Counted from the first letter of the stretch, positions 32,050 to 64,000 are shown. The stretch: DNA of 64,000 nucleotides from Flavobacteriales bacterium (GCA_022428205.1 JAKMCW010000068.1:473-64472), one strand, 5' to 3'. The notes: generated by a model not told the origin, from the sequence alone. A program made the numbers and translations.

Positions 32050-35000
32050 ATGCTGTCATTTCGCAACCTTATAATTCTACTAACGCTTTCCTTGACCAGT
32101 CCGATTTTCGGTCAGGACCTCGAAGCGTTGCTCTCTACTGAGCCCGCTCAGCTCTCTCCTTCTCAGATTGAGACGCTTGCGGCTTTCACTGTGACCATCG
32201 ACACCATAGCTGAGGATGTTGGTGTACTCAGCGACGTCGACTTGACAGGATACAGCACCTACCGTTTGTACATCACAACGAACTCTGAGCAGGACAAAGT
32301 CTCCAGCATCTACGGCGACTTGGACGAGCCCCTCTCGGTTGAAACGACGGGAGACTTCTTTCAATCCTCTCCAATCGGCGGAGTAACAGCAGAAGGCATC
32401 ATCCCATTGGTCTGGGGTACATATCCATCCAATGAGTTTGACAGCTACGTCACGGTGGGCATTGACGAGGCCCCATCAAATGAAGCAGGAGAGTTGGGCA
32501 TCAATCTTTTGCAATCTGGCAACGACTCATGGGTCACCTATTTCGAACCGGAGGACGATTCCTATGGAGGAGACTTTGAGATTTCAGACTTGACCGGTGG
32601 AGGCTGGTTCGTTTTGCCCAGTGCCACCAATGGCATTGCAGGTCCAGAGAAGAGGGTGCTGATCGCCCAATTCACCACCAATGGCGCGCTTTCTGGCGTC
32701 ATTAACGCCCAAATCTTCTTGGAGGGTGACAACATCAATGGTACGGTTTACTTGACCTTGACCCTGCCCGTTGAAGGCTGCGATGACGAGACAGCCTGCA
32801 ACTATGACGAAGAAGCCACAATCAACGATGGTTCATGTCTGTTTGCCGATGCGCCTTGCGAGAGCTGCTTGAACGGCGAGCTCGTGGACAACGATTTAGA
32901 CGATGACGGCGTCTGTGACGACGTAGACGACTGCGTTGGAACGCTCGACGCCTGTAACGTATGTAATGGACCTGGCGAGATCTACGACTGTGGGTGCGCT
33001 GACATCCCCGCTGGCCAATGCGACTGTGACGGAAACCAAGAAGACGCCCTCGGGGTCTGTGGCGGATCCTGCGCGGCCGATGCCGACAACGATGGCATCT
33101 GTGACGACGTAGACGACTGCGTCGGAACGCTCGACGCTTGTAGCGTCTGTAACGGACCTGGCGAGATCTACGACTGCGGGTGCGCCGACATCCCAGCTGG
33201 CGATTGCGACTGTAACGGAAACCAAGAAGACGCCCTCGGGGTCTGTGGTGGATCCTGCGCAGCCGATGCCGACAACGATGGCATCTGCGACGACGTGGAC
33301 AACTGTACTGACCTCAGCGCGTGCAACTTTGACGGCACTGCTGGAGGAAGCGGCGATTGCGTCACCCTTTCATTGGAGACCTACGTTGTCCACACTTCAG
33401 GCAACCTGAATGGACAGACGACTTACCGCTTGTACGCCGTCCTTCCCAATAGCGATGACTTCCTGTCAGCTGTAAAAGGAGAAGGCCCCACGCCATTGAA
33501 CATCACCACCACCACCAGCTTCTACCAAAACGAATTCGGCGGTGCGGACGGAACCAACATCAACGCACAGCTCTTCGGTTTCGACCCAGAATTGCAATAT
33601 GACAGCTGGGTCACGATCGGACATGCGCCAGAAGACGGTCCCGCTCAAATCAACCTCACCACGGCCACCAGCCCTGGTCAAGACTGGATCAACATCTTCG
33701 AAGGCGGAGGAGACATCGTCATGGACGACACCTTTGGCGGCCTCTGGTCCATCCTCAACGATGGAAACACACAAGGCCTCGCGGGAGACGACAATAAGGT
33801 CCTCATCGCACAATTGACCACCGATGGTAACATCGATGCCCAGATTGAAGTCCAGTACTTCCCCAACTATGGGTGCTGCGCCAACGGCGGAGCCGACGGA
33901 ACCCTGGACCTCAGGAGCCATGTTGACCTCTCCACAGCATGCAATGCCAACAACGACTGTGCTTACACAGACGCTTGCGGTGTATGCGGAGGAGATGGAA
34001 CAGACGAAGACAACGACGGCATCTGTGACGACGTGGACGACTGCGTCGGCGAGCTCGACATCTGTGGCGTCTGCAACGGCAGTGGACCACAGCCCGGCTT
34101 CGACTGCAATGGAGACCCCATTGGGGACGGATGTTCACCATTCTGCCTGAGTCTCGATACTCCACTTGAAGACCAAGTGTTTGATTGCCCAGAAGACCTC
34201 GAATCCGTCTCTTGTCAAACCGACCTGACCGCTTCTAACTTCTGCAACGAAGAACCCGTTGGCGTCAGTTGTTCCTTGGCCTCGCGCCGCCTCTCCGAGA
34301 CGGTCTGCAACGCCACAACCGCCTTGGGTGTGGGCCAAGATGGTGCCCTCGTCCTCTTCGGTATCGAAGGCTACGGTGTAGCATCGACTTATTACGAGCC
34401 CACGGCCGCAGGATTGACCCTGACACAGTATCCCAACAGCAACACCGCTGTTTTGGAAGGTGAAGTACAGGGAACCGCTGACCCCACCGAAAAGTGGTCG
34501 GTCTACATTACCTACGAAAACGCCGTGTCCGGAGCCGATTGGAACGGCGGATTTAAATCTGCCAATGAGTGCACCCCAACTTCCGACATCACAGACTCAT
34601 GGACCATCTACACGATGAAGAATGACCAGAGCTTCTTGATGGGAACCGGTGCACTGGACGGCAGCTTGCTGTTCCTCAACCACGCCCCCATGAATGCTTA
34701 CTTCGGCTTCCAGGTGGGCGAGATGGCCAATGACCGGAACTGCGATTATGGTGCCGGCGGTTGGTTTGCCTGGGAAGGCCAGATCAATGGCCAACCTGTA
34801 GCCGGAGCCAATGGTGACGTACTCGTCAACCTGGAGTGCAGCGAAAACACAGTTGCCCCTTGCGATGAGGAAATCATCTTGACATACTCATTGGTGGATA
34901 CGGCTTGTGCCACTTTGACCAATGTCGAGCAAAGCTTCACCTTCCTCGATGACGTCCCCCCCACCTTTGACAATGCGCCCGCCGATGTGACCCTCAGTTG

Positions 35001-38000
35001 CAACGATCCACTGCCGGCCATTCCGACCTTGACGGCAACGGACAACTGCACAGGAAATCCCTCACCAGTGGTCATTTTCAACGGTGAAGCGGAGACGTCA
35101 TACACGGCCGATGGCTGCCGCACCTTGGAGCGGAGCTGGCTGGCTACGGATGCGTGCAACAACACAAGCACCCATACGCAGACCATCACGATTGAAGACC
35201 TCGATGCGCCGGTCATCACCATGACCTGCCCTGCCGACGCCGCCCTGTTTAGCGATGCCGATTGCAACGCCGAGACAGGTATAGATGCGCTCGGAAGCCC
35301 GACCGTTACAGCGACGGACAACTGCACGGCAGACCCCGGAATTGAGCTTACTCATGAAGATGGAGCGACCACCAGCACCTGTGAAGGCCAGCTGACCTTC
35401 ACACGGACATGGACGGCCACCGCCACGGACGATTGCGGCAACACCGCGATTCAGACATGCGCGCAGTCCATTTCTATTCAGGACCTCATCGCACCGACCA
35501 TCGCAGGTGACACCATCGTCACGATGTCATGCGACGCCTATGACGAGGCTACCCTGTATGCCATCTCGGCAACGGACAATTGCAGCACTGCGAGCATCTC
35601 CGTTCTGTCCAACAGCGCCTTTAGTGGAGCCTGTGCAGGAACCGTCTTGCGCACCTATGAAGCCACAGACGACTGCGGCAACAGCTCCACATTTGAACAG
35701 GTCATTAACCTCACGGACGACGTCGCACCTGCCGTTACCATCGCATGCCCAGCAGGCGCTACGCTTGCGGCAGGACCTGATTGCACGGCCGACCTCTCCG
35801 TTGAGACCCTGGGCACTGCAACCGCCACTGCCACAGACAACTGCGATACGGCACCTGAAGTCGAAATCAGCCATACAGATGTCTTGATCGACCTGTGTGC
35901 TGGCAGCCAAAGATTGGAGCGGACCTGGACGGCCACTGCAACCGACCACTGCGACAATGTGTCCACAACCAGCTGTCTTCAGGTAGTCCTCATTGAAGAT
36001 GTCACACCACCAAGTTTGACCTTGGCCTGCCCTGACGACGCTGCGTTGGAAGTGGACGACATGTGCACCGCATCCACACTGCCAGAAGTGACGGGAACCC
36101 CCACCTTCGAAACATCCGACAATTGCGGTGGCAGTGTCGCGGTATCGCTGAGCCATACCGACAGCGACACCATTCCGGGCTGTGGCAACACCTTCTCATT
36201 TACCCGAACCTGGACAGCTGTGGCCACGGACGATTGCGGCAATGCTGCAACGGCCACCTGCGCCCAAAACATCGCTTTGACCGACGTCACAGCTCCTGAT
36301 TTCGGGGACGCGGCGATTTCCGTCAGCGCACCATGTGATCAATTGCTCGATCCAGAGGACCCCACCCTCGTGCCAGTTGAAGCCACGGACAATTGCTCCG
36401 AGGTGACCTACAGCATCGCCGCTACGGAACTTTCAGGCGGCTGCCCAGGCACATGGGAACGCGTCTGGACCGCCACTGATGCCTGCAACAACAGCAGCAG
36501 CTTTACCCAGTACGTGGCGCTCTTCGACACCATCGCTCCAGCGATCACTTGTCCTTTGGATACCGTCCTCTACCTCGACGCCAACTGCGAGGCAGCCCTC
36601 TCTACGGCGCTGCTGGGTATGGCTTCAGCAGATGACAATTGCTCCTCGGCAGATGAAATCGCCATCTCCTTTGCCGATGGCGCCGCCAGCCTCAGCTGCA
36701 CGGGCGATGACGAGAATCCCGAGGGAAGCCGGACCATCGTCCGCACCTTCACCGCGACTGACTTCTGTGACAATGTGACCGCCTGTTCGCAGACGATCAC
36801 CCTCCTGGACACCATCGCCCCACAGGGCAGCGTATCCAATGAAACCGTCGCCTGCGCTGAATTCGACAGCATGGTTGAATACGGAACAGCTTCCGCTACG
36901 GACAACTGCGACAGCGAGGTGGCGTACTCCTGGGTTGAGGATGGCATCATCAGCACCCTGTGCGAGAACAGCTATGAGGTTCAGCGGACATACACCTTCG
37001 TGGACGACTGTGGCAACAGCAGCACGGCCATCCAAGTCTTGACTGTGGTGGACGACACCGCGCCTGTGGTCATTGGAGACATGCACGCCAGCTTGGCATG
37101 CGACGCCTATGGAGATGATCCTGAAGACCCCGCCAACATCCTCATCACAGCCACCGACGATTGCGGAGAGGTGAGCATCACCTTTATGGACTTGCCGTTC
37201 AGTGGTGGTTGCGTCATGCCGTTCTCCACGTTGATGCGCCAGTACAATGTCAGCGATGACTGCGGCAACACCACGGTGTTCCTTCAGTTCATCGATCTGA
37301 TCGACACGGTCGGGCCGGTCATCACCCTCGATGCCCCCGCTCCTGTCCAACTGTTCTCAGACGCCGATTGCATGTTCAATGCCGACACGAGCATCACGGG
37401 CGTGCCCGGCATCACAGCCTTCGACAACTGCAGTCCTGACGTCACATTGACCATGACAATGGAAGACGGACCGCTCGACACGCTTTGTGCTGGGTCCTAC
37501 GTCTTCACCCGCACCTTCACTGTGACTGGAGAAGACTACTGTGACAATGCGACCGTGGCATCCAGCACCCAAGAGATCACCATTACGGACAACACGGCCC
37601 CCGTGCTGACCTGCCCCGCCGACCTGACGGTGGAGTGCGACGGTGCCGGCAACGCCACAGCACTCGCCAACTGGCTGGCTTCCGCTAGTGCTCTGGACAA
37701 TTGCAGCGAGGCGACCATCACCAACGACTTTGTGGGATTGTCCGACGGGTGCGGCGCCACAGGTGCTGCCACAGTGACCTTCACCGCTATGGACGATTGC
37801 GGCAATGCGAGCCAGTGCAGCGCCACCTTCACCATCACGGACAGCACAGCACCTGTCGTTAGCCCTGCGGCCGACTTGACCGTCCAATGCGACGGTGCAG
37901 GCAACACGGCTGACCTCGAAGCTTGGCTGTTGGCCAACGGCGAAGCGACTGCACAAGAGTCCTGCTCTGACGCCACCTGGTCCAACGACTTCTCAGCACT

Positions 38001-41000
38001 GGAAGAAGCCTGTGGCAGCACGGGCGCTGCAACGGTGACTTTTACTGCCACGGATGACTGCGGAAACGCTGCATCCACTTCGGCCACGTTCAGCATCATC
38101 GACACCATTTCACCAGACTTCAACGGCTCTTCCTACACCTTTGAGATTGCCTGTGACCTCTACGACGAGACCACACTATACGGCCTCATGGTGGACGACG
38201 TGTGCGGACTCGATACCGTCTATGTGAGCGACATCGTCTCCGTGAGCGGAGGATGTCCCGCCGGATACCTGCGCACGTACATGGCACTGGACGCCTGCGG
38301 CAACAGCAGCACCTTCCAGCAAGCTGTCAACCTGATCGACACCGTCGCTCCGATGTTCACATCGGTGCCTGCGGACTACGTGGCCCTCTGCCATGAAAAC
38401 CACCCGCTTGACGATGCTTCGGCCACGGACAACTGTGCCGAAACCTTGTCCATCACGGTGACCGCAGACACGACAGCTGGGGACTGCCCTCAGGCTTACA
38501 CCGTGACGCGCACATTCACCGCAGAAGATGGGTGCGAGAACACCACAACGGCCATTCAAGTCATCCAGATAGTGGACACCTTGGCGCCGAGCTTCGCCGA
38601 GGCCCTTCCCGGAGACATCACCGCGGACTGCCACGCAGTGCCCACAGCCGCCACTTTGACGGCAACGGATCTCTGCAGCGATGTGAGCGTAACCTTCGCC
38701 GAGGACACCACACTCGGCGACTGTCCCCAGGCCTATGTGCTGACACGCACTTGGAACGCTGCTGACGCCTGTGGCAATGCCATCTCACACACCCAAGTGG
38801 TCAATGTGCAGGACGTAACCGCGCCCAGTATTGATACACCCGCCATGGACCTCACAGTGGAATGCGACGGACAAGGCAACGTGTTTGACTATCTGAACTG
38901 GCAGTCTTCACAGGCCGGAGCCACAGCGTCAGACTTGTGTGGAACCGTGACCTGGAGTCATACCGTGGACAACACGTCGGACGCCTGTGAAGGCGCTACC
39001 GGCAGCAGCACGGTGACCTTCACCGCCACGGACGAATGCGGCAACAGCGCATCCACGACGGCCACCTTTACCATCGCAGACACACAAGCGCCCATCATCA
39101 CGGCTGAGGGCCTCGTAGAAGTCATGTGCGCCGATTACAGCGCTGAGGCCGCGTATGGCTTCTCCGCAATGGACGCTTGTAGCGACATCAGCTTCACCAT
39201 CGCGGACACCGAGGTGGAAGGCTCATGTGCCGGCTCCTTCGAACGGATTTACACCGTCACCGATGCCTGCGGCAATGAGGCCACAGCGACCCAAATCGTG
39301 CACTTGTATGACAGCATCGCACCGGTATTCACATCGGTACCCGACAATGCCGACCTCCAATGCGGCAGCGACTTTGGCACGGATGCCTTGGGCATGGCGG
39401 CCGCCGAGGACAATTGTGACGGCGACGTCAGCATCACCTACCTCGATGCCATTGCGGACAGCACCGGCGCAGATTGCTACACCATTCAAAGGGTGTGGAC
39501 CGCGACGGACGCTTGCGGCAATGCAAAGAGCGTGACGCAGACGATCACCATCTCAGACGATGAAGCCCCCGCGCTGTCGGTCAGCTTCCCTGCCGATCTC
39601 CAACTCGAAGCCGATGCCACTTGTAGTGCGGCAACCGGAACGGATGAAACCGGTGAGCCTAGCGCAAGTGCAACGGACAACTGCGACCTGGACGTGCTCG
39701 TCTCCATTGCGCACAGCGACAGCATTGCAGACGGATGTGAAGGCGCCTATACCATCTTCCGTACTTGGACGGTCAGCGCTGCGGACAACTGTGGAAACAG
39801 TGCCTCTGAATCTGCGGTGCAAACCATCGCCGTTGTGGATGTCACTGCACCAACCCTGGCGGTCACGGGCCCTGTGGATCAGGTCTTGGATCAGACAGCC
39901 GGATGCGACCTCGACACCAGTGTTGACGCATTGGGAACGGTTGGTTTCGAAGCCAGCGACGCTTGTGACCCCAATCCGGAGGTTACCGTAACCCACACAG
40001 ATGGTCCTTTGGTGTACAGCTGCATCTCCGATGACAGCATCGCCGAGGGTGACTACAGCTTCACACGGACCTTCACGGTGACCGCGACGGATGCTTGCGG
40101 CAACGCAGAAACGCTGAACATAGAACAAACCATCTCTGTCCTCGACCAGTTACCCCCCCAGTTCACAGAGACTTGTGGCTTGGATAACGGCGCATCGGTC
40201 AGCGTATGCTGCGACGACGCGGAAGGTTCTGTGATCATTCCAGACTCATGTGCTGTGCAGTTCCAGGACAATTGTGACTCCGAAGTCGACCTGACCTACA
40301 CCGAGTCCTATGTCGGGGCATACGCACCTACAGCTGACGTGATTTCCTTCTGCTCATCCAGCCTGCCTGCCCCATTTGAGGACGGCGAGACATGCAATGG
40401 CATGGACCCCCACAACTTGAGGCTGTTCAACCTGCCCGGAGGCGAGGCCTTGTACGCGGCTGTCACGCCGGGAACAGTGGAGCAAAGGGCCGATGGCACC
40501 TGGATGCTTTCACAGAGCGTGACCGCTTTGGACGGCTCTGGAAATGGCTGGGACATCGAAGCCACCTTTGATGCGGCACTGGATTGGAACTCATGGGACA
40601 ATCAGGACTTCCCCACCGGCTACAAGCGGGACTGCAGCGCGCTCATTGACGGGCACGAGGAATGGGACTACCGCATCATGCAAAGCGGCACCCTGACAGG
40701 AACTGGCGGCTATACGGGCTCCACCCTTTCGCTCACCCACGCGCCTGCCAACCAATACTATGCCTTCCAGATTGGCATGGCCGCCAACAACATGAACAAC
40801 GCCTATGGGTACAGCGGATGGTTCGCCTACAGCGGAACATTTGACGGGCAAGCCGTGATCGGTTCAGGAGACCTGTTCGGCGACCTTGATTGCTGCCTCC
40901 CCTGGTCCATCGAGCGGAACTACCTCCTCCTCGACGACTGCGGCAATGCGTCTACCTTCGGTTACACCATCGCGGTCAACGGAACAGACTGTTCCACCTC

Positions 41001-47131: not shown

Positions 47132-47171
47132 AGACCGTAAGATACGACCCCTATTTTCGCATTTGAAACGA

Positions 47172-53357: not shown

Positions 53358-56300
53358 TTAGCGCAGGATCATCAGCTGGCCCGCGTGCTCTTCGCCTTCT
53401 GGCAATTGCAACACGAAATAATGGGTGCCGTCGGCAGCACCTTCTCCTGACCAATCGTTGTCATAGCCCTCAGCTTCGTACACCACCGCACCATTTCGGT
53501 TGTACACGGTCAAGAAGTTGTCAGGGTACAACTCGATGTACTTGAACACCAAGCGGTCGTTCTTGCCATCTCCATTGGGTGTGAAGATGTTGACCAACTC
53601 GACCGCACAGGATAGGATTTCCAGCACGTGGGAGTCCGTATCGCCACAAAGTCCTTCGAGAACATGATTGACCGTCACCGTACCTACGCCAGCGGCCTCC
53701 AAGTCCAACAGACCCGTCACGGGATCTATGCACTCATTGCCCGATGCACTGCTCGCACTCCACACACCATCGGCCCAAATCGACCCCAACTGCCACTCCT
53801 CTACCCCGATGCACAACTCATCGTTGGGCACATCGACCAGAATCGCAGCGTCACGTTGCGGCACCACGGTGACTTGCACGGCATCGACATCCGAACAGAC
53901 ATCCGTAATGGTGTAAGTGATCGTGTAGTTGCCTGCACCAATGCCGGGATCAAAGCTGCCAGCTGGGGTAATGCAATTGCCACACGAAGCTGTCCAAGTA
54001 CCCCCTCCATCGGCCGCACCAAAGACCTCAGTACCCGATGATTCACAAAGGTCTGGAATGGCATCAATCGAAGCATCTACAGCAGGCGCCACCAGAATCT
54101 CAATCGAAGCTCCTGTACTGCAACCCACTGGGTCATTGTAGGCGATGGAGACCGTATGCGTGCCTTCTCCAGCATCGCCTGGATCGAAGACACCATTGCT
54201 GCTGAGGCAGCCGCCGCAGTCGCTCGTCCACACCAGATTGGGCACATCCGACCAGACAGCCTCGGCACTCAAGTCCACATCTGAATTCAATGCCCCTCCG
54301 GAGCTATTGACACAGAATGGATCTTCCTCTTGGAGTGTGACGCTCAAAATGGGCAATACCTCCAGCGAGAACGAGGCGGAATTCGTGCAAGCCCCATTCT
54401 CCACTTGGTAATTCAAAACATTCACACCGAGCGGTGCAGCTCCAGGGTCGAAACTGGCTCCGTTCAAGCCTGCGCCGGATGCTGTCCATGTCCCGCCAGG
54501 AACGTCTGCCTCGAGGCTGAGCGCGGTGGCATCCACGCATACCACGTCGGGGACGTTCGAAGAACCAATGGGCAAACTCTCATCTACCGTAACCGTCGCC
54601 TCACTCTCAACACCACAGCCCGCACCGGGCAAGAAACTCACTGCATACGCACCTGGCCCCGGGGGCGTGAAGGCCCCAGAGTTTTGAATGCAACCGCCAC
54701 AATCAGCGGTCCAAGTACCTGCTAAACCGTCTCCATCCAATTGGATGCTGCCTACAGACTCGCAATAATTGACATCCTCCAATGAGGCGGCCACCTCCTC
54801 TCCTACATTGACCGCAACCGTACCTGTGGAGGTACACAACGTGCCAAAGGTGTAAGAGGCCGTGTAGGCACCAGCACCCGTTGATGGATCAAACAAACCG
54901 TCCGGAGAAACACAACCGCCGCAGTCAGCTTCCCAGTTGCCCCCAGCAGGGGTTGCCACCAGCTGCACAGGGTCAGCAAAAGGGCACAACCCACCAACAC
55001 TACCGGTGTTGATGTTTGGCGTCAAGCCGACCTGTATTTCCTCAACCTCAGTGACCTCTCCACAATCACCGAGCAAGGTGTAGCTCACCTCCAAGATGCC
55101 CGGTGGCGTCTGGCTTGGATCGATGGTTCCACCCTGATCAAGACAGCCCACACAATCTGCAGCCCACGTGCCTCCAGGTGCATCCGGAGCGAGCGTCACC
55201 GCTTCATCGCCGCTGCACAAAACGTCGAGTGGATTGCCATCCATGTCGAGGATGGCAAATTGGGCGTTTTGAGACTCGAAGGTGAATTCTACCATAATGG
55301 TGTCCGTCGCCATGAACTGGGACGTATCAGGCTCCTCAGGCTCGAGATTACACAGGTAAAAGAGGGTAACAGACCCCTCGAAATTGACATTCGCACCTGA
55401 ACCACCCCAAGCGTTTTGCACGGTCAATGTCCAATCACCGTCGCCCTCCAGAAGGTTGCCAGGCACCGCGAAGCACGCTTCGTAAAACCCACCAAAAGTG
55501 GTGTTCCAGTTAAAGGGCCAATCTCCGATCAAAACACCAGGCAGGTCGAAACTGAATCCCTCGATGACACCGCATGACCCCGACGGATCACAAATAGACA
55601 TAGACATGTCACCAGGCCAACTTCCGCCAGCTGGTGACCAATTGTTGGTCACCGCAAAGCCGAGCAATTCACCTTCAAAGGGAAAATCAAAGGACCCGGT
55701 CTGGTTGGCACTGAGGTTGAAGTCATACCCCATGACCGTATCACACGCTTCTTCAGGAATAGCGTCACAACTGCCCGCGACAGGAGGAGGAGGCAAAATC
55801 TCCGGGAAATTCGCGCCAATCACAAGCTCGGTGGTCCCTTCAATACACAGCGAAATGCTGTCTCCTTGGCCCACGATTTCATCTCCCAGGAGGTACACCA
55901 ACTGGGTTTGGGTCGCACCATTGGGTGAATACTCAAAGGACTCATTGGAAATCGTGAACTCCCCGGTATCATACTCTGCCGGGCCAAATGCACCTTCACC
56001 AGAACCTCCCTGGATTCCTACACAGGCCGTAATCCCCAAGCAAGACTCGAATTGGCCAATGTGCATTTCAACTTTGTTGGAGGTCTCGTGCAGCACCACT
56101 TGCGTCACCAGCTCATTGGAACCGCATCCCGTTTGCGGCAAGTTCTCCCAGCTAATGACGAACTGTCGGCAAGGGAATTCTCCCAGTGTAGCCGTACGGA
56201 CCTCCCCTCCACTGTTACTGATGTAAGCGTACGGAGCCATGATCGAGTTGGAAGGCAGTGAGCCGGAGCCCAGACTCTGGTTGGGGTAATTGTAAGTGCC

Positions 56301-56681
56301 TGTCAGGTTGGTGTTGAAGGTCAAGAAACCCTTGCGGCTCACTTTGATTTCAAAGAAGTCCGTATCAAAGAAGCTGAATCCAAAGGGCAGGCTAATGTCA
56401 CCTGTGAAACCGTTGGTCGCAGTGGACTGGACCGTTCCACTTCCGACGGCCAATGGTGGCGCATAGGCGATGGAGTCCACGTCGTATCCCGTGGTCTCCG
56501 CAGCACGCTCAAAGTCAGGGGCTACCCAAACACAAGAATCGAGGCACCCGGCGGTGAGACCCTCCGGTCCAGTAAGGAATCCACAATCCGTTTGGGCAGT
56601 CGAGACCAATGAACTTAAGACAAGAACGACCAACAGGCCGAGGCCATGGCCTGGAGCTGCCAAGGACAAGAAATTGCGCAT
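53358..56681 (-). CDS. large adhesin-like protein with gliding-motility-associated (T9SS type-B) C-terminal domain
   Basis: Signal peptide; seven ~70-aa repeats (GGTW.ADCGGC...G.FDP...Y..SY). C-terminal NIFTPNGDGKNDRLVFKYIELYP...VYNRNGAVVYEAEGYDNDWSG...GTHYFVLQL. Confidence 0.85.
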   Translation of the reverse strand: MRNFLSLAAPGHGLGLLVVLVLSSLVSTAQTDCGFLTGPEGLTAGCLDSCVWVAPDFERAAETTGYDVDSIAYAPPLAVGSGTVQSTATNGFTGDISLPFGFSFFDTDFFEIKVSRKGFLTFNTNLTGTYNYPNQSLGSGSLPSNSIMAPYAYISNSGGEVRTATLGEFPCRQFVISWENLPQTGCGSNELVTQVVLHETSNKVEMHIGQFESCLGITACVGIQGGSGEGAFGPAEYDTGEFTISNESFEYSPNGATQTQLVYLLGDEIVGQGDSISLCIEGTTELVIGANFPEILPPPPVAGSCDAIPEEACDTVMGYDFNLSANQTGSFDFPFEGELLGFAVTNNWSPAGGSWPGDMSMSICDPSGSCGVIEGFSFDLPGVLIGDWPFNWNTTFGGFYEACFAVPGNLLEGDGDWTLTVQNAWGGSGANVNFEGSVTLFYLCNLEPEEPDTSQFMATDTIMVEFTFESQNAQFAILDMDGNPLDVLCSGDEAVTLAPDAPGGTWAADCVGCLDQGGTIDPSQTPPGILEVSYTLLGDCGEVTEVEEIQVGLTPNINTGSVGGLCPFADPVQLVATPAGGNWEADCGGCVSPDGLFDPSTGAGAYTASYTFGTLCTSTGTVAVNVGEEVAASLEDVNYCESVGSIQLDGDGLAGTWTADCGGCIQNSGAFTPPGPGAYAVSFLPGAGCGVESEATVTVDESLPIGSSNVPDVVCVDATALSLEADVPGGTWTASGAGLNGASFDPGAAPLGVNVLNYQVENGACTNSASFSLEVLPILSVTLQEEDPFCVNSSGGALNSDVDLSAEAVWSDVPNLVWTSDCGGCLSSNGVFDPGDAGEGTHTVSIAYNDPVGCSTGASIEILVAPAVDASIDAIPDLCESSGTEVFGAADGGGTWTASCGNCITPAGSFDPGIGAGNYTITYTITDVCSDVDAVQVTVVPQRDAAILVDVPNDELCIGVEEWQLGSIWADGVWSASSASGNECIDPVTGLLDLEAAGVGTVTVNHVLEGLCGDTDSHVLEILSCAVELVNIFTPNGDGKNDRLVFKYIELYPDNFLTVYNRNGAVVYEAEGYDNDWSGEGAADGTHYFVLQLPEGEEHAGQLMILR
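53361..53615 (-). other. gliding-motility-associated / T9SS type-B C-terminal domain
   Basis: VNIFTPNGDGKNDRLVFKYIELYPDNFLTVYNRNGAVVYEAEGYDNDWSGEGAADGTHYFVLQLPEGEEHAGQLMILR. Confidence 0.8.
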
Positions 56682-56720
56682 GTCGAAAATTAGGACAAAG
56701 ACAGCTTAATCCACTGACCT

Positions 56721-58892
56721 TCACTCACACGAATCGCCGTACGATGCCAACAACTCAAGAATGTCCCCCACTCCTACTGTACCGTTGCCATCCACATCCC
56801 CTTCGAGGTTGCTCCCCATTTCTCCGAAATCTGACAAGGTCTCCAACAAATCCGTCGCACCCACCACACCATCACCATCAATATCTAAGGGACAGGAAGC
56901 AGGTCCACCGAAGTATCCGGACACCTTGAAAAAAGCCATATCAGCCACCTCTACCCCGAGCTGGCGGCCAGGAAAATCATCCGCTGGCGGATGGATTCCT
57001 CCCCAGATGCGCGACAAGCTACACTGGTCAGAAGCATCGCGATAGGTGGCCCATTGCAAGCTAAAGGTCTGGCTCGGCCCATCTTCAAACACCAAAAACT
57101 GGTTTTGCAGCACTTCAAACTCTCCCATTCCTCCTGGAAAAAATGGGCTGCCCGTCACCGCTGTCAAAATCTCTGCCGCTGCCCGTGAAAATGTGCTGTG
57201 GCCACTGACATATCCAGCAAATGGTGGCGTAACAAAGCTCGGCCTTTGGTAAGGCCACCATTGCTCTGCCAAAATCCAGCCGACCTCGGCTTCGTCCCAA
57301 GTGGGTGAAATGATGGCATCAGGCCCTTGCCAAGCCCACACTTTAATCTTGCCTTCATTGCCTCCTGCAGCCAAGGGATCTCCGGCTTCCACCAGTTCAA
57401 TCCGCCCTTCCACCAGAGGAAGGCCCCCTGGATCATATGAGGGAAGTGAAGCATCACTGCGTTGTCCCAATTCCGCCATGTATCGGATCGCCGACACTGG
57501 ACGGATGTAGTCATACAAACCTTTGTGCGACCAAGCTGAGATGGCCGCATCATGCATCGCTCCACCAAGAGCGAGATAGGCACGAACGGTATACTTCAGG
57601 GGGTCCAAGTCTTCCCCTTCTCCCATCCATTTCGTGTTCGAAGCTGGGTGGTCCATGACACCGTTCAGCAGCACGAACCAGTGCCCTGGAGGCGTTTCAC
57701 TCTCTGGACCATCGGCCCAAAACTCCGCCAAGACACGCGCGTAATCACCACGCGGTACGACGTTCTCAGAATAAGGAGCGCCTGTCGCGGGGTTTTGTAA
57801 ATGGCCCTCACTGAGGTCACCACCTTCCAGCCAATCGTAGAAGGTGTCCATTTCTTCGAAACCATCAGGTCCTGTCGAAGAGAGGTTTCCAAGACTTCCG
57901 GGGCCGATGTCCATCATGACGCCGTCCGAAGGGTGCAAATGGCCACTCCACAGTGCCACCAGAGCAAAGCCCCATGCGTAAGGGTCTGCCAGACCTCCTA
58001 CCTCTTCCCCTTCTCCGAAGTATGGCGGCGCACCACAGTCCATGTAAAGCGGCCAGGTGATTCCGTTTCGTTCAACTTCAGTCAACACGGTATCAGAAAG
58101 CGCAAAAGGAAGAACACTGCCCCATTCTGCACCTTGAAAGTCTGGTGTCTCACTGAGCACATTGCCCGACTGATCAACAAAAACTGGAATGGACAGGGGC
58201 TGCCACGCATTGGGGTCCACCAATCCTGAATTCCCGGAACCTGCCAGCTCCAAATCTGGGTTTACTGAACTGTAATACTGATTGGCATAGTCGGCTGCTT
58301 CATTCGAGCCATCCTGAAGACCAAAGGCAATCAACTGCTCACCAAGATAATTTCCGATGGCAGCAGGCCCTTCTTCGATGTTGACAGACGTGTACCCGGG
58401 GCTGTACCCCAATTCTGCCATGAAATTGGTAAAAGAGAACAACACCTCAAGGCCCCCTGGACTGTTCGTGAACCGGTGGTTCAACAGCCTGAAAACAGCG
58501 TAACTCATGACCGTCTGTACTGCGGCCTTGCGCAGCGCCTCGTCCTCAGGGATATCGATGAGTGAGGTGTCCAAAGGGCACGCGAATCCTTGCCATGTCT
58601 TGCCCAAAAAAACGGTCTCATCCTGCCCATCGTAGAGGGCGTGAGCGTCATACATCGCAATTGAAGTATGGAACAGGTTTCGCGCATGAACGGTAGGCCT
58701 CGCGAAGTCTGCACGGATGGCTTCGAGCAAGAGCTCATTCCACTGCCTGGCCAGCGTTTCTTCCACAGCCTGGCTCCGGGCTTCTGCTGAAGAACCATAC
58801 CGAGTGGTGGGCATGGATGCAACCTGGCAGACGAGGTCCATGGGGACCAGCATCAAAAGGCCTAAAACGACGGAAAAGAAGGCACGCACCAT
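56721..58892 (-). CDS. vanadium-dependent haloperoxidase / PAP2-like secreted enzyme with two dockerin-like repeats at the C-terminus
   Basis: Signal peptide. Motifs KGLYDYIRP (K-x6-RP), YVSGHSTF (SGH) and SRIWGGIHPPADD (SR-x5-H-x3-D). Ends in CPLDIDGDGVVGATDLLETLSDFG...DVDGNGTVGVGDILELLASYGDSCE. Confidence 0.8.
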   Translation of the reverse strand: MVRAFFSVVLGLLMLVPMDLVCQVASMPTTRYGSSAEARSQAVEETLARQWNELLLEAIRADFARPTVHARNLFHTSIAMYDAHALYDGQDETVFLGKTWQGFACPLDTSLIDIPEDEALRKAAVQTVMSYAVFRLLNHRFTNSPGGLEVLFSFTNFMAELGYSPGYTSVNIEEGPAAIGNYLGEQLIAFGLQDGSNEAADYANQYYSSVNPDLELAGSGNSGLVDPNAWQPLSIPVFVDQSGNVLSETPDFQGAEWGSVLPFALSDTVLTEVERNGITWPLYMDCGAPPYFGEGEEVGGLADPYAWGFALVALWSGHLHPSDGVMMDIGPGSLGNLSSTGPDGFEEMDTFYDWLEGGDLSEGHLQNPATGAPYSENVVPRGDYARVLAEFWADGPESETPPGHWFVLLNGVMDHPASNTKWMGEGEDLDPLKYTVRAYLALGGAMHDAAISAWSHKGLYDYIRPVSAIRYMAELGQRSDASLPSYDPGGLPLVEGRIELVEAGDPLAAGGNEGKIKVWAWQGPDAIISPTWDEAEVGWILAEQWWPYQRPSFVTPPFAGYVSGHSTFSRAAAEILTAVTGSPFFPGGMGEFEVLQNQFLVFEDGPSQTFSLQWATYRDASDQCSLSRIWGGIHPPADDFPGRQLGVEVADMAFFKVSGYFGGPASCPLDIDGDGVVGATDLLETLSDFGEMGSNLEGDVDGNGTVGVGDILELLASYGDSCE
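56724..56900 (-). other. Cys-bracketed dockerin-like C-terminal tail (two repeats)
   Basis: ASCPLDIDGDGVVGATDLLETLSDFGEMGSNLEGDVDGNGTVGVGDILELLASYGDSCE-stop. Confidence 0.7.
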
Positions 58893-59209: not shown

Positions 59210-59210
59210 G

Positions 59211-60650: not shown

Positions 60651-60791
60651 GGACACCGGAAACTTACCCATAAATGAGCGTCCTAAGGCATATCCGAGAA
60701 GACCTCTTTTGCCCAGCTCTAAGGAGCCAATCTGCACGGCGGTATGCCATCATGACCGGACCTTTCATGTCACCAAATTCCACCAAAAGCA

Positions 60792-60819
60792 GAAGGCCGC
60801 CCCTTCCGGGACGGCCTTC
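60792..60819 (-). terminator. terminator-like hairpin downstream of the paralogous adhesin gene
   Basis: GAAGGCCGcCC-CTTC-CGGgaCGGCCTTC (one mismatch). On the minus strand it is followed by TTTT. Confidence 0.55.
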
Positions 60820-60845
60820 CAAATTCAGTGTTCCTCAGCGGGAGA

Positions 60846-63800
60846 TTACTCGCTGACGAGGAGCTTCTTGACCAACACGTAGTCATTGCTCGACATGCGG
60901 ATCTGGTACATACCGCTAGACAATGTGCTAGCGTCGATGTCCATCACGTATTGCACATCCTCGCTGGCGTTGCCATCAAACAACTCGGCCACGTATCCAC
61001 CGCCCATCGTGTAGAGGTCGATGCGGAGGCGCATGTTGCTGTTCACCACAAACCCGAGCGTAGAGATATCGCTGGTTGGGTTTGGAGAGAGGCCCGTGAT
61101 ACGGATTGGATCCTTCAGGTTGCTCGTACCTGCAGTGAGATCCACAGGTGAGTGACCACCGCTAACCGTGCTGTTTGCACTGTTACCGAACGTACCCGTT
61201 CCGAGGTCGGTGTAGGTGAAGCCGTTGGAGTTTCCGCAGTCGTCCACAACGTTGTAGCTGTAGTCGATCTGCCATCCGAGGCAGCAGTCGAGGTCCATGA
61301 AGATGTCACCGCTAGAAGCCATAGCTCCTTGGCTAGCACCATCGAGGACATACTCACCGGTCCAGAAGAACCAAGCGCTAGCACCGTAGTTCTCGTTCTT
61401 GTTGTTGGCGCCTTCACCAATCTGCAAGCCATAGTAGGCATTCAGAGGCTGGTGCTGGAGCGCGAACTCAGAACCTGCGAAGCGACCCGTACCGCTCATG
61501 GTACCACCGTCCATCACGTAGTACAACCACTCCGTCCAGATCTCAACACCGGGGAAGATCTCTGCACAGTCTTTCTTGTAGTTGTGCAAGCCTGGCAGGG
61601 CGAGCCACTCATTCCAGTCGTGTGCACCTTCGTAGATAGCGTCGAAGATGAATCCGGCATCACCTGCCTCATTCTGTACTTCGAGCACGATGTGCATAGA
61701 GCTGTCCTGCATGACCTCAACGATGCTGCTGCCACCTTCTACGAGGGTGAAGGACTCACCTCCAGAGAAGTTGAACAAGCGGATCGCTTCAGGAGCGCGG
61801 TCGTCACAAGTCTCACCGTTGGCGAGGGCTTCGACGTCACTTGGCATGCAATAGTTGGCAATGTCGCCTGTGGGCACGTAGCCCATCGTGTCAGCCGTCA
61901 TCGTCAACGCCACGTCGCTGTCGCAGTTCTCGATGTACGAAGGAGCGCAAGCTGCGGGAATCTCCGTGAAGTCGAGGACGTCATTCACTCCGTTACCGTT
62001 GTCATCAGCGCAGGTGTACTCTACCGTCTCGCCGTTCTCAATGTCACACGTGTTGGTGAACTGAGGAGCGATGGTGTCGAGCACCACGATGTACTGGTAG
62101 GAGTACTCCGTGTTGGAGTTGCCGCAATCGTCCGTCACCGTAGACGTCCACACACGTGGGAAGACATAGCTTCCTTCGATGTTGTCGTCGTCGCCGGAAC
62201 AACCGTCGCCGAAGGTGATGGTCCGCAGCTGCTGCTGGCTTCCATCTCCTTGTGGGAAGATTTGAGCGAAGATTTGACCGTTCAGGTCACCGTCAGTGGT
62301 GACTTGAGCAACCAACACCTTACCGTCAGCATCAGCATAACCATTGGATGCGCCGTTGAGCATGTAGAAAGCACCGCCGAACAGGCTGCTGATCACTACA
62401 TCTTCTCCGTTCTCGAAACGCGTGTACCACTGATCTCCCGCGGTTTGAATCGCAGCAACAGGCTCCTCTCCGAGGTCTGCATTTGGAATGGAGTCCAAAC
62501 CGATCGTGATGTAGCTGTCGTACTCCAAATCAGGGAAGGTCTCGAAGAGGTCGTGGTTCAGGTCGTTTGGCGTATGAGAGCCAATCGGGTGCTGATAGAA
62601 GCTCGTGCTCGTGCGGATCTGGGTGCTAAATGAACCCTCTCCACTGACTGAGCTCAAGAAGTCTCCAGCAGCAGGAAGCACTGCATAGATGCGGTAAGTG
62701 CTCATACCAGCGAGTTCGCCCGTTGTGTGCACGGCCACCGTATCAATTTCAACATTCGCTGAGCCGAAGAGGTCGTCGAAGTTGGCAGGATCATCCTCAT
62801 AAGACACCTCAATGGCGACATCGCTGTCACAGTTGTCTGCAGCCTCCACACCTGGCTCCATCGCTGGCGTCACGTCAGCCATGCAATCCAAGTCGAGGTA
62901 GAGCGTGTCCGTAGGCAGGGTAGCCAAGGTCTGCGTTGGAGCCAAGTCGTCAATGACGGTGATGGTCTGGTCGCAGGTCACACTGTGGCTGTTACCGCAG
63001 TCATCCGTCGCCGTAGAAGTGAACGTACGCACGAAGCTGTATGATCCGTCGAGTTGGTCGTCATCTCCTGCACAGCTGTAGCTAGGAGCAGCGTCTGCAT
63101 AGGTGATTTCAATCGACACCTCGGAGTCACAGTTGTCAGTACCAGAACCTGTTGCCATACCGAGAGCATCAGTGCTCAGGTCAGCCTCACAGTTGGCATC
63201 CAACATGACCGTTTGATCATCAGGACAAGAAATGCTCGCCTCAGGTGCGATGTTGTCTTCGACCACAATCAGCTGATCACAAGACTCCTCAGAGACGTTG
63301 CCGCAGTCATCAACAGCAGAGGCCGTCCAGGTACGAACGATTTCGTAACCGCTGGTTCCGCATGTGTAGGTGGCAGCACCATCGCTGTAGCTATAGGTGA
63401 TGGTCACATCCGTATCACAGTCATCCGTCGCCAAGGCGAAGGCACTTCCTGTGATGGAAGGATCGAGATCGGCCATGCAATCTGCATCCAGCTGGACCGT
63501 AGCCGTGTCTGGGCAGGTCAGCGAGATAGACGGACCAGTGATATCGAACGTGTTGATTACCTGCGTGCAGATCTCAGTAGTGGAGTTGCCATTGCAGTCA
63601 ATCGCCGTCACCGTGAAGGTCCGTACGAAGTTGTAGCTGCCCTCTGGATTCGCATCCACACCGACCAAGCTGCAGTCAAACTCAACTTCATCGCTATAGG
63701 TGTAGCTCACATCCAGATTCTCATCACAGTTGTCAGTGGCAATCCACTCAACCTCACCCAAGGCAGCCAAGCTTGTATCCAAGCTCGCGAAGCAAGAACC

Positions 63801-64000
63801 AACGAGGTTGGCACCGTTCGGACAATCGAGCGTCAACTCTGGAGCGCTGTTGTCAATCACCGTGATCACCTGATCACCGGAGGCAAAGCCTGAGTTTCCG
63901 CACAAGTCGATAACCGTCACTTTCCAGGTACGGGTAAAGGTATAGGTGCCTGTCTCCTCACCACAGTCGTAGCTAGGAGGACCGTCGAGGTATGAGATCA
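60846..64000 (-). CDS. giant T9SS-secreted HYR-repeat adhesin, paralog of 32050..41352 (5' end outside window)
   Basis: The frame stays open from 63920 to the window edge (...ISYLDGPPSYDCGEETGTYTFTRTWKVTVIDLCGN). Same order of HYR repeats, domain X, domain Y and type-A CTD (PIRITGLSPNPTSDISTLGF...SGMYQIRMSSNDYVLVKKLLVSE). Confidence 0.9.
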   Translation of the reverse strand, partial: ISYLDGPPSYDCGEETGTYTFTRTWKVTVIDLCGNSGFASGDQVITVIDNSAPELTLDCPNGANLVGSCFASLDTSLAALGEVEWIATDNCDENLDVSYTYSDEVEFDCSLVGVDANPEGSYNFVRTFTVTAIDCNGNSTTEICTQVINTFDITGPSISLTCPDTATVQLDADCMADLDPSITGSAFALATDDCDTDVTITYSYSDGAATYTCGTSGYEIVRTWTASAVDDCGNVSEESCDQLIVVEDNIAPEASISCPDDQTVMLDANCEADLSTDALGMATGSGTDNCDSEVSIEITYADAAPSYSCAGDDDQLDGSYSFVRTFTSTATDDCGNSHSVTCDQTITVIDDLAPTQTLATLPTDTLYLDLDCMADVTPAMEPGVEAADNCDSDVAIEVSYEDDPANFDDLFGSANVEIDTVAVHTTGELAGMSTYRIYAVLPAAGDFLSSVSGEGSFSTQIRTSTSFYQHPIGSHTPNDLNHDLFETFPDLEYDSYITIGLDSIPNADLGEEPVAAIQTAGDQWYTRFENGEDVVISSLFGGAFYMLNGASNGYADADGKVLVAQVTTDGDLNGQIFAQIFPQGDGSQQQLRTITFGDGCSGDDDNIEGSYVFPRVWTSTVTDDCGNSNTEYSYQYIVVLDTIAPQFTNTCDIENGETVEYTCADDNGNGVNDVLDFTEIPAACAPSYIENCDSDVALTMTADTMGYVPTGDIANYCMPSDVEALANGETCDDRAPEAIRLFNFSGGESFTLVEGGSSIVEVMQDSSMHIVLEVQNEAGDAGFIFDAIYEGAHDWNEWLALPGLHNYKKDCAEIFPGVEIWTEWLYYVMDGGTMSGTGRFAGSEFALQHQPLNAYYGLQIGEGANNKNENYGASAWFFWTGEYVLDGASQGAMASSGDIFMDLDCCLGWQIDYSYNVVDDCGNSNGFTYTDLGTGTFGNSANSTVSGGHSPVDLTAGTSNLKDPIRITGLSPNPTSDISTLGFVVNSNMRLRIDLYTMGGGYVAELFDGNASEDVQYVMDIDASTLSSGMYQIRMSSNDYVLVKKLLVSE
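60849..61112 (-). other. T9SS type-A C-terminal sorting domain
   Basis: DPIRITGLSPNPTSDISTLGFVVNSNMRLRIDLYTMGGGYVAELFDG...LSSGMYQIRMSSNDYVLVKKLLVSE. Confidence 0.8.
61281..61823 (-). other. domain Y copy 3
   Basis: ANGETCDDRAPEAIRLFNFSGGE...FALQHQPLNAYYGLQIGEGANNKNENYGASAWFFWTGEYVLDGASQGAMASSGDIFMDLDCC. Confidence 0.6.
62202..62759 (-). other. domain X copy 5
   Basis: STYRIYAVLPAAGDFLSSVSG...TSTSFYQ...YDSYITIG...GGAFYMLNGASNGYADADGKVLVAQVTTDGDLNGQIFAQIF. Confidence 0.7.
62790..64000 (-). repeat. HYR-like repeat array of the paralogous adhesin (continues beyond window)
   Basis: Same DN/DD-x-AP...CP.D...TDNCD...RTWTA..DDCGN pattern repeated at least 5 times. Confidence 0.75.

What the first reader, a model, noticed from the sequence alone, without database searches (positions are those of the whole stretch)
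32050..64000. Candidate surface-display system: T9SS-anchored giant scaffolds plus enzymes carrying a Cys-bracketed dockerin-like tail, with no recognisable cohesin
Seen:
- Five proteins in this 32-kb span have type-A-like T9SS CTDs: 32050..41352, 41507..44104, 49105..49998, 51851..52657 and 60846..>64000.
- One protein has a type-B gliding CTD: 53358..56681.
- Two active-looking enzymes are interleaved with them: a GH13 at 44180..47131 and a haloperoxidase-like protein at 56721..58892. Both lack a T9SS CTD and end in a ~30-aa dockerin-like EF-hand repeat bracketed by Cys.
- A third protein with the same tail lies at 20450..24415.
- Nothing cohesin-like is recognisable by eye.
- The T9SS proteins share two unassigned domains, X and Y.

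Inference only: X and/or Y on the T9SS-anchored scaffolds may be the receptor for the tails. That would be a cohesin/dockerin-like enzyme display arrangement in a T9SS organism.
Basis: inference. Interest (0 to 1): 0.8.

Follow-up and report, generated by a model that had tools for sequence, protein, structure and literature searches.

The report
Dockerin-like tails alternate with T9SS signals
In an uncultured marine Flavobacteriales genome, secreted enzymes and giant surface proteins end either in a type IX secretion signal or in a short, cysteine-bracketed, calcium-loop tail with a dockerin fold; the tail is real and replaces the secretion signal in orthologues, but nothing shows that the unassigned domains X or Y are its receptor.

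Summary
The sequence features are mostly real. Three proteins end in a Cys-bracketed dockerin-type tail: two have one repeat and the haloperoxidase-like protein has two. Three type A T9SS CTDs and one type B CTD are confirmed, and two further type A calls are not confirmed by sequence. X and Y are genuine domains with no match in Pfam, NCBIfam or PDB.

The proposed system is not supported as stated.
- The tail is not specific to enzymes. In relatives it ends small X proteins, giant proteins with four or five X copies (up to 4475 aa), a few Y proteins and a choice-of-anchor I protein.
- The tail and the T9SS CTD never occur together.
- The two are swapped between orthologues of the haloperoxidase-like enzyme: about 46 homologues carry the tail and 71 carry the CTD.
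- Y is common in T9SS cargo across about 1168 protein clusters.
- Neither X nor Y resembles cohesin.
- The gene interleaving is conserved synteny that includes housekeeping genes.

Best reading: the tail is a strictly C-terminal Ca2+-binding docking or anchoring module related to NCBIfam "GC-type dockerin". A high-GC marine Flavobacteriales clade uses it in place of a T9SS CTD. Its partner is unknown, and so is how tail-bearing proteins cross the outer membrane. X as the receptor is untested and not excluded.

The parts
20453..20536 (-). Single-repeat Cys-bracketed dockerin-like tail of the 1321-aa esterase-like protein (gene 20450..24415): CPTDLDGDGATAVGDLLLLLGSFGQPCD
   Evidence: It has a canonical 12-residue EF-hand loop (D1, D3, D5, G6, D12) followed by an amphipathic helix. 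No Pfam hit on its own.
44183..44326 (-). C-terminal module of GH13 (gene 44180..47131). It consists of the FCGxGTxWD...C motif followed by the single-repeat tail CPEDVDGDGLVGASDVLAMLSAFGGLCP (44183..44266).
   Evidence: Dockerin_1, 15 bits; dockerin_GC, 13.6 bits, profile positions 1-30. Orthologous tails occur in L004, L006 and P0128.
56724..56894 (-). Two-repeat dockerin-fold tail of the vanadium-haloperoxidase-like protein (gene 56721..58892). Cys residues occur only at the two outer ends.
   Evidence: Pfam Dockerin_1 scores 22.0 bits against a cut-off of 22.9. NCBIfam dockerin_GC scores 19.7 bits over profile positions 1-67. The AlphaFold2 model has pLDDT 84. The top 24 Foldseek matches are all dockerins.
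44180..47131 (-). GH13 alpha-glucan enzyme with CBM48 and two C-terminal CBM20/AMPK-CBM-like modules. It has a Sec signal peptide and no T9SS CTD.
   Evidence: Catalytic regions I-IV are present.
56721..58892 (-). Vanadium-haloperoxidase/PAP2-like enzyme (DUF6851 + VCPO_2nd) with a signal peptide. It lies 39 bp upstream of the type B CTD protein gene.
32050..41352 (+). 3100-aa surface protein. It contains X twice (32161..32775, 33355..33924), Y twice (34312..34839, 40381..40905), many HYR_4C repeats and a type A CTD (41098..41349).
   Evidence: CTD 94 bits.
41507..44104 (+). 865-aa protein with an N-terminal X (41588..42202), Cys motifs with TSP3-like repeats, and a type A CTD (43856..44101).
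   Evidence: CTD 34 bits.
49105..49998 (-). 297-aa protein: signal peptide, X (49363..49923) and a 68-aa C-terminal beta-sandwich (49108..49311). The sandwich may be a divergent CTD.
   Evidence: No CTD HMM hit.
51851..52657 (-). 268-aa choice-of-anchor V protein. It contains neither X nor Y, and a C-terminal CTD is not confirmed.
53358..56681 (-). 1107-aa protein with a T9SS type B CTD (53361..53600). It contains neither X nor Y.
   Evidence: CHU_C, 67 bits; TIGR04131, 33 bits.
60846..64000 (-). C-terminal part (more than 1050 aa) of a larger protein with X (62199..62777), Y (61272..61820) and a type A CTD (60849..61103). The gene runs off the window.
   Evidence: (CTD 96 bits).

Best explanation
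The span is an ordinary chromosomal stretch of an uncultured, high-GC marine Flavobacteriales genome, with gene order conserved among relatives. It is unusually dense in Sec-exported surface and secreted proteins.

These proteins use three mutually exclusive C-terminal modules:
- a T9SS type A CTD;
- a T9SS type B CTD;
- a short dockerin-fold module made of one or two F-hand units (a 12-residue Ca2+ loop plus an amphipathic helix) closed by a pair of cysteines.

The third module is a divergent relative of the NCBIfam "GC-type dockerin" domain, sometimes present as a half-length version.

Proposed mechanism:
- After Sec export, the cysteines are oxidised and the loop binds Ca2+, which is abundant in seawater.
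- The folded tail then acts as a non-covalent docking or anchoring handle that holds its passenger on a cell-associated partner. The passenger may be an enzyme, a small X protein or a giant X-repeat adhesin.
- In this way the tail takes over the localisation role that the T9SS CTD plays in orthologues from other Bacteroidota.

X and Y are passenger beta-sandwich domains, most probably ligand-binding or adhesin modules, and are not demonstrated receptors.

Shown here: the module, its strict C-terminal position, its fold, its mutual exclusivity with CTDs, the swap between orthologues, and its range of passengers.

Inferred only: Ca2+ binding, the disulfide, docking, and the partner. How CTD-less tail proteins cross the outer membrane is not explained.
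For: - Tails in the window: the three tails are the only such C-termini there.
- Position: the module is strictly terminal. With the loop-plus-helix definition, 34 of 34 copies lie within 4 residues of the stop and none is internal among 961 ORFs. The looser pattern gives 31 hits against 0.075 expected by shuffling.
- Fold: the AlphaFold2 model has pLDDT 84 with two loop-helix units and beta-bridges between the loops. The best Foldseek matches are all dockerins. The top one is 2y3n_B, with TM 0.74/0.85 and rmsd 1.2 A. Calmodulin reaches only TM 0.26.
- Sequence: Pfam Dockerin_1 scores 22.0 bits against a cut-off of 22.9. NCBIfam dockerin_GC aligns end to end at 19.7 bits. Related tails score 28 to 42 bits against a cut-off of 29.
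- Mutual exclusivity: among X-bearing ORFs in the window and 80 related loci, about 40 end in a CTD, about 31 in the tail, and none in both.
- Orthologous swap: of the 120 best homologues of the haloperoxidase-like enzyme, 33 at 67-91% identity and about 12 at 53-56% identity end in the two-repeat tail. 71 end in a type A CTD at the same place. The tail lineages have 52-57% GC and the CTD lineages 34-41% GC.
- Passenger range: GH13, an esterase-like protein, the haloperoxidase-like enzyme, an EEP-family enzyme, a beta-helix protein, a choice-of-anchor I protein, and HYR-rich giants.
- Export: tail proteins have Sec signal peptides.
- Genomic context: the span is syntenic in L004, L006, L053, L058, L078 and L079, housekeeping genes included.
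Against: - No partner was identified. Nothing tested here shows binding, Ca2+ dependence or a disulfide.
- Proteins without a T9SS CTD or a lipoprotein signal have no known route across the Bacteroidota outer membrane. Surface docking therefore needs an extra, unknown step.
- A single F-hand is not a complete dockerin. The EST and GH13 tails fall below every curated threshold.
- The census was made on loci chosen because they contain X, so the proportions are biased.
- The whole genome could not be read.
Confidence: 0.5

Rival explanations
1. X (and/or Y) on T9SS-anchored proteins is the cohesin-like receptor for the tails. This would give a cellulosome-like hierarchy. Enzymes with enzyme-type tails would bind X copies on giant scaffolds. 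The scaffolds' own, different tails would bind X on small X-CTD anchoring proteins.
For: - X is restricted to the same marine Flavobacteriales clade in which the tails abound: 255 proteins and 415 genomic stretches, all from such MAGs.
- Giants carry 4 or 5 X copies plus one tail, the layout of a scaffoldin.
- Giant-type and enzyme-type tails are distinct subtypes.
- Small X-CTD proteins such as G49105 exist.
Against: - X shows no cohesin similarity by Pfam, hhalign (probability 0.2%) or fold search.
- X copies within one protein are only about 35-45% identical.
- X usually sits at the N-terminal tip, as an adhesin head domain does.
- Y is widespread in T9SS cargo of lineages where tails are rare.
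- There is no interaction evidence of any kind.
Confidence: 0.12
2. The tail is itself a C-terminal export or sorting signal for crossing the outer membrane. It would be either a new class of T9SS signal or the signal of another translocon, and functionally equivalent to the CTD it replaces.
For: - It is strictly terminal, 34 of 34 copies.
- It is mutually exclusive with CTDs and swapped with them in orthologues.
- It is carried by Sec-dependent giants of up to 4475 aa, which are hard to picture staying in the periplasm.
- It occurs on a choice-of-anchor I protein.
Against: - Known T9SS signals are 70-100-aa Ig-like beta-sandwiches. This module is a 28-57-aa loop-helix with a dockerin fold.
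- Related GC-type dockerins pass the NCBIfam cut-off in fragments whose closest named relative is from Phycisphaerales. By my own knowledge Planctomycetes lack T9SS; the fragments themselves are not taxonomically assigned.
- No dedicated neighbouring gene is conserved next to tail genes.
Confidence: 0.15
3. Half-dockerin pairing. Single F-hand tails associate with each other, because EF-hands are stable only in pairs. This would link enzymes to giant adhesins or to each other without any cohesin, possibly fixed by inter-chain disulfides.
For: - EST, GH13 and most relatives carry only one F-hand.
- In the two-repeat form the only two Cys bracket the whole pair, so the disulfide must join repeat 1 to repeat 2. 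The same geometry would be inter-chain in a dimer of single repeats.
- Two complementary-looking subtypes exist.
- That isolated EF-hand peptides dimerise with Ca2+ is established knowledge, not something tested here.
Against: - Tandem forms in which each repeat has its own Cys pair also exist (P0121, P0122, P0164, P0303). These fit an intra-repeat staple equally well.
- No dimer prediction was possible.
Confidence: 0.12
4. The tail is only a structural Ca2+-binding cap that stabilises or protects the C-terminus of extracytoplasmic proteins. It would have no targeting role.
For: These proteins are full of other Ca2+/Cys modules, namely TSP3-like and MopE-like motifs.
Against: This does not explain the strict mutual exclusivity with CTDs, the replacement in orthologues, or the one-per-protein, always-terminal position.
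Confidence: 0.08

Closest known systems
Cellulosomal dockerins (Pfam PF00404; for example the type II dockerin of 2y3n_B)
   Same: Both have two F-hand Ca2+ loops, each followed by a helix, and both are C-terminal on secreted enzymes. The predicted fold superposes at rmsd 1.2 A.
   Different: - The tail is Cys-bracketed.
- It often has only one repeat.
- It scores below the Pfam threshold.
- The host is a Gram-negative T9SS organism.
- No cohesin was found.
- It is carried by giant adhesins as well as by enzymes.
NCBIfam NF041540, GC-type dockerin domain-anchored protein
   Same: Both have Cys just before the first loop and Cys at the very C-terminus, and both are C-terminal. The profile aligns end to end with the haloperoxidase tail. 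Related tails pass the cut-off.
   Different: The window tails score 19.7, 13.6 and 0 bits against a cut-off of 29. The single-repeat form covers only half of the profile. No paper on this family was found.
T9SS type A and type B C-terminal domains
   Same: They occupy the same position on the same passenger families and are mutually exclusive with the tail.
   Different: The fold is unrelated: a beta-sandwich of 70-100 aa against a loop-helix of 28-57 aa. Nothing suggests that the tail is recognised by the T9SS.
Choice-of-anchor domains (NCBIfam/Pfam concept)
   Same: X, Y, the choice-of-anchor I protein in L069 and the haloperoxidase-like domain all occur in front of alternative C-terminal modules.
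   Different: X and Y are not in any curated family.
EF-hand pairs (calmodulin)
   Same: The loop consensus is the same. By sequence alone the best PDB matches are calmodulin lobes, at E about 3e-5.
   Different: The tail has no entering helix and a shorter linker. At fold level it matches dockerins, not calmodulin.

Membership tests
Dockerin (PF00404 / dockerin fold) | Two tandem F-hand repeats: a 12-residue loop (D-x-[DN]-x-[DN]-G ... D) followed by a helix | tested here: met
   The haloperoxidase tail has two such repeats. EST and GH13 have only one, so for those two tails the feature is not met.
Dockerin (PF00404 / dockerin fold) | Pfam HMM score at or above the gathering cut-off (22.9 bits) | tested here: not met
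   22.0 bits for the haloperoxidase tail, 15.0 for GH13 and no hit for EST. Several related tails carry precomputed PF00404 hits.
Dockerin (PF00404 / dockerin fold) | Dockerin three-dimensional fold | tested here: met
   AlphaFold2 model with pLDDT 84. Foldseek ranks 1-24 are all dockerin chains. The best is 2y3n_B, with TM 0.74/0.85 and rmsd 1.2 A. Only the two-repeat tail was modelled.
Dockerin (PF00404 / dockerin fold) | Ca2+-dependent binding to a cohesin partner | not testable with these tools
   No multimer prediction or binding assay was available.
Dockerin (PF00404 / dockerin fold) | A cohesin encoded in the same genome | tested here: inconclusive
   No Pfam Cohesin was found in the window ORFs scanned or in 10 CTD proteins of relatives. 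A narrow CipA-type cohesin HMM found nothing among 8350 ORFs (best E 0.21). The whole genome was not available.
NCBIfam NF041540, GC-type dockerin | HMM score of at least 29 bits | tested here: not met
   The window tails score 19.7, 13.6 and no hit. Relatives P0129, P0122 and P0123 score 42.3, 32.1 and 29.4. The P0340-type tail scores 28.2.
NCBIfam NF041540, GC-type dockerin | C-terminal position, with Cys before the first loop and Cys at the end | tested here: met
T9SS type A CTD (PF18962 / TIGR04183) | HMM match at the extreme C-terminus | tested here: met
   G32050, G41507 and G60846 score 22-30 bits with Pfam and 94, 34 and 96 bits with a lineage HMM. The feature is not met for 49105 and 51851. 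The AlphaFold2 model of 49105 shows a 7-strand sandwich.
T9SS type B CTD (PF13585 / TIGR04131) | HMM match at the extreme C-terminus | tested here: met
   G53358 scores 67 bits with CHU_C against a cut-off of 27.
Cohesin (as the identity of X or Y) | Sequence or profile similarity to cohesins | tested here: not met
   Pfam gives no hit at E<=10. hhalign against CipA cohesins gives probability 0.2% for X and 0.8% for Y. The PDB profile search gives no hit.
Cohesin (as the identity of X or Y) | Cohesin-like fold | tested here: not met
   The X model (pLDDT 87) is a beta-sandwich. Its best PDB matches are generic sandwiches (GH85 EndoA, HBP35, C3c, RbmA), and no cohesin appears in the 50 listed. 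Y was not modelled.
Cellulosome-like display system | Dockerin-type module on the enzymes and receptor modules on the anchored scaffold | tested here: not met
   In relatives the tail also ends proteins that carry X and Y, including giants with 4-5 X copies.

The most novel reading that the evidence does not exclude
A display system without cohesin, in which the tail solves both docking and outer-membrane crossing. It has two possible forms.
- Single F-hand tails of enzymes pair with the single F-hand tails of the giant X-repeat proteins, forming a split dockerin.
- Tails bind, while still in the periplasm, a domain of CTD-bearing cargo (X is the obvious candidate) and are carried out through the T9SS as passengers.
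Either form would explain why Sec-dependent proteins of up to 4475 aa and whole enzyme families could lose their T9SS CTD in this clade.
Probability: 0.12. Interest if true: 0.8.

Novelty: new variant of a known kind. Interest (0 to 1): 0.52.

Why it matters
Type IX secretion is thought to require a beta-sandwich CTD. Here a whole clade of abundant, uncultured marine Flavobacteriales has exchanged that CTD for a 28-57-aa dockerin-fold tail. The exchange affects enzymes and multi-thousand-residue adhesins that keep their Sec signals.

This raises a concrete, testable question: how do these proteins leave the periplasm, and what holds them at the surface?

Several outcomes are possible.
- The tail may dock to a partner, which would define a non-cellulosomal, Ca2+-dependent display mechanism in Gram-negative marine polymer degraders.
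- The tail may be a signal, which would widen the definition of T9SS or outer-membrane sorting signals.
- If neither holds, the result is still practically useful: these proteins should not be annotated as T9SS cargo, nor as cellulosomal.

Tried and rejected
- An exact look-up of the window's haloperoxidase-like protein found no record, so the source contig was not identified. The closest relative is the MAG BS301-5m-G28, at 91-97% amino-acid identity.
- The tail profile search returned only fragments of 84 aa or less, so it gave no census of passengers.
- I tested whether G53358 (type B CTD), which sits 39 bp downstream of the haloperoxidase gene, could be its partner. The gene pair is conserved in four close MAGs. 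It is absent next to tail-bearing orthologues of other high-GC Flavobacteriales, where DUF2490 or era follow instead. Rejected.
- I looked for a conserved partner next to the giant tail proteins. Their neighbours are folD, ffh and argS. Rejected.
- The fold search for X gave only weak, generic beta-sandwich matches.
- Literature searches found nothing on GC-type dockerins or on dockerin tails in T9SS organisms.
- The cohesin HMM I could build covers only CipA type I cohesins, so divergent cohesins would be missed.

Full report
**What is in the window**

ORF listing and translation confirm every gene named in the finding. Seven of the nine lie on the minus strand.

- Pfam and NCBIfam give Por_Secre_tail hits near threshold for 32050..41352, 41507..44104 and 60846..>64000.
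- An HMM I built from 105 CTDs of related proteins scores these three at 94, 34 and 96 bits. These type A CTDs are real.
- 53358..56681 has a clear type B CTD (CHU_C, 67 bits).
- 49105..49998 and 51851..52657 have no detectable CTD by any HMM.
- The AlphaFold2 model of 49105 (pLDDT 87) shows a 68-residue, 7-strand sandwich after X. It resembles HBP35 and the RgpB CTD only weakly.
- 51851 is a choice-of-anchor V protein.
- The GH13 and the haloperoxidase-like enzyme keep their catalytic motifs.
- All other window ORFs are housekeeping or unrelated: adk, obg, a 2-oxoacid dehydrogenase E1, lpdA, xseA, valS, photolyases and ppk/ppx. None has a Pfam cohesin.

**The tails**

A six-frame scan finds exactly three proteins with a Ca2+ loop whose first Asp lies 25 residues before the stop codon.

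- EST and GH13 end in one 28-residue unit, C-P-x-D-x-D-G-D-G-x5-D-L-L-x2-L-x2-F-G-x2-C.
- The haloperoxidase-like protein ends in a 57-residue tandem of two such units, with Cys only at the outer ends.
- The loop is a canonical EF-hand loop (D1, D3, D5, G6, D12) with no entering helix, which makes it an F-hand as in dockerins.
- On the isolated tails, Pfam Dockerin_1 scores 22.0 bits (cut-off 22.9), 15.0 bits and nothing.
- NCBIfam NF041540 "GC-type dockerin" aligns end to end with the tandem tail at 19.7 bits. It aligns with its first half to the GH13 tail. Related tails from metagenomes score 28 to 42 bits against a cut-off of 29.
- By sequence alone the best PDB matches are calmodulin lobes.
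- The AlphaFold2 model of the tandem tail (pLDDT 84, two loop-helix units joined by beta-bridges) matches dockerins and nothing else at the top of a PDB fold search. The best match is 2y3n_B, with TM 0.74/0.85 and rmsd 1.2 A. Calmodulin reaches TM 0.26.
- Across the window and 80 related loci, the loose pattern occurs at 31 C-termini of 961 ORFs, against 0.075 expected from shuffling. With the loop-plus-helix definition, 34 of 34 copies are within four residues of the stop and none is internal.

**X and Y**

- X is about 190 aa and has five copies in four window proteins. Y is about 175 aa and has three copies in two proteins.
- Neither domain hits Pfam at E<=10, NCBIfam or PDB sequences.
- X is confined to uncultured marine Flavobacteriales MAGs, several of them labelled Crocinitomicaceae. 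It occurs in 255 proteins and 415 genomic stretches.
- Y is widespread, in 1168 clusters. It typically sits just before a canonical type A CTD.
- The X model is a beta-sandwich with only generic structural neighbours, and no cohesin is among the 50 listed.
- Profile-profile comparison with CipA cohesins, whose sequences I validated against PDB, gives probabilities of 0.2% for X and 0.8% for Y.

**What the relatives show**

- 14 of the 120 best X homologues end in the Cys-bracketed tail.
- In 80 genomic loci, about 31 X-bearing ORFs end in the tail and about 40 in a type A CTD. None has both.
- The tail-bearing set includes a syntenic core gene between folD-ffh and argS. It encodes giants of 2300 to 4475 aa with a Sec signal peptide, four or five X copies, HYR_4C repeats and one tail.
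- Other passengers are an EEP-family enzyme, a beta-helix protein and a choice-of-anchor I protein. A few Y proteins also carry dockerin-like tails.
- Among the 120 best homologues of the haloperoxidase-like enzyme, the 33 closest (67-91% identity) and about 12 at 53-56% end in the tandem tail. All named ones come from Flavobacteriales MAGs.
- A further 71 homologues end in a type A CTD at the same position, in a protein of almost the same length. These come from Lewinellaceae, Saprospiraceae, Hanstruepera and Phaeodactylibacter.
- The tail-bearing lineages have 52-57% GC and the CTD-bearing ones 34-41% GC.

**Genomic context**

The gene orders G32050-G41507-GH13-lpdA-G49105-DUF3575 and G60846-xseA-haloperoxidase-G53358-ferritin-G51851 are conserved in several MAGs at 57-97% identity. 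The interleaving is therefore inherited gene order that includes housekeeping genes, not a dedicated cluster.

The haloperoxidase-G53358 gene pair is conserved only in the closest lineages. It is absent from other tail-bearing lineages.

**Interpretation**

- The tail is a strictly C-terminal, dockerin-fold module. This clade uses it as an alternative to a T9SS CTD on the same passenger families.
- That pattern fits a localisation module. I consider Ca2+-dependent, disulfide-stabilised docking to a cell-associated partner the most likely function (confidence 0.5).
The division into "scaffold with CTD" and "enzyme with tail" does not hold.
- A giant with several X copies and one tail does look like a scaffoldin, and giant-type and enzyme-type tails are distinct subtypes. 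X as receptor therefore remains possible (0.12).
- The other rivals are a new export signal (0.15), pairing of half-dockerins (0.12) and a purely structural Ca2+ cap (0.08).
- How CTD-less, Sec-dependent proteins, including the giants, would cross the outer membrane is the main unexplained point.

**Novelty**

- Dockerin-like modules outside cellulosomes are known. Examples are dockerins assigned to rumen Bacteroidetes (PMC6487960) and dockerin-type giant proteins of Omnitrophota (bioRxiv 10.1101/2023.11.21.568195).
- NCBI curates a GC-type dockerin family.
- What appears to be undescribed in the searched literature:
  - the single-repeat, Cys-stapled form;
  - its systematic exchange with T9SS CTDs in a marine Flavobacteriales clade.
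- I rate this a new variant of a known kind.

Noticed in passing
window 20450..24415 (-), aa 180-186 and 608-614: Both alpha/beta-hydrolase (BD-FAE-like) copies of the esterase-like protein read GDGTGG or GEGTGG where this family normally has GDSAGG. No GxSxG motif exists anywhere in the protein. The nucleophile serine seems to be missing, so the protein may be a pseudo-enzyme or binding protein.
   Followed up: partly
window 20450..24415, 32050..41352, 41507..44104, 44180..47131; most related loci: A Cys motif of about 25 aa, GC[TM]DxxAxNY[DN]xxAxxDDGSCxY, is repeated in nearly all these proteins and often sits directly before the tail. It has no Pfam family.
   Followed up: no
window 44267..44326 (-); P0067-P0078, L072: A second Cys motif, FCGxGTxWDxxxxxC, precedes the tail in GH13 and in small X-tail proteins of relatives.
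   Followed up: no
L008:9737-12745, L009:6254-9154, L010:6403-9297, L025:1-2427: A third kind of C-terminus occurs on X proteins...SCYSAFD[LF]IPFLTL[FY]QTC followed by an acidic stretch. It looks like the helix half of the tail without the Ca2+ loop.
   Followed up: no
window 53358..58892 (-); L053, L058, L078, L079: The haloperoxidase-like gene and the type B CTD gene are 39 bp apart on the same strand. The pair is conserved in four close MAGs. It is not found next to tail-bearing orthologues of other high-GC Flavobacteriales.
   Followed up: yes
L053 (CAXQGL010000064.1), L059 (PBNL01000025.1): Contigs labelled Nitrosopumilus sp. and Methanobacteriota archaeon carry Flavobacteriales-type genes. 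L053 is syntenic with the window (xseA, haloperoxidase, G53358, ferritin). They are most likely mis-binned.
   Followed up: partly
L028, L029, L032, L045, L049, L060, L073, L075, L077: A giant gene of 2300 to 4475 aa sits at a fixed place between folD-ffh and argS in many MAGs. It encodes a Sec signal, 4-5 X copies, HYR_4C repeats and a tail of its own subtype, GD[LI]NxDGxxNVxDLLxFFQxYGxxC.
   Followed up: partly
window 8027..16245 (-): A cluster of three photolyase/cryptochrome-family genes lies together with a hydrolase, a flavin reductase and an SDR. ppk and ppx are at 3951..6970.
   Followed up: no
L081-L085: Haloperoxidase-like orthologues with the tail come from contigs of 52-57% GC. Those with a T9SS CTD come from contigs of 34-41% GC.
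   Followed up: no
window 44180..47359 (-): The longest GH13 ORF starts at 47359. The upstream 76 codons overlap the lpdA start region (47163) and are probably not translated.
   Followed up: partly
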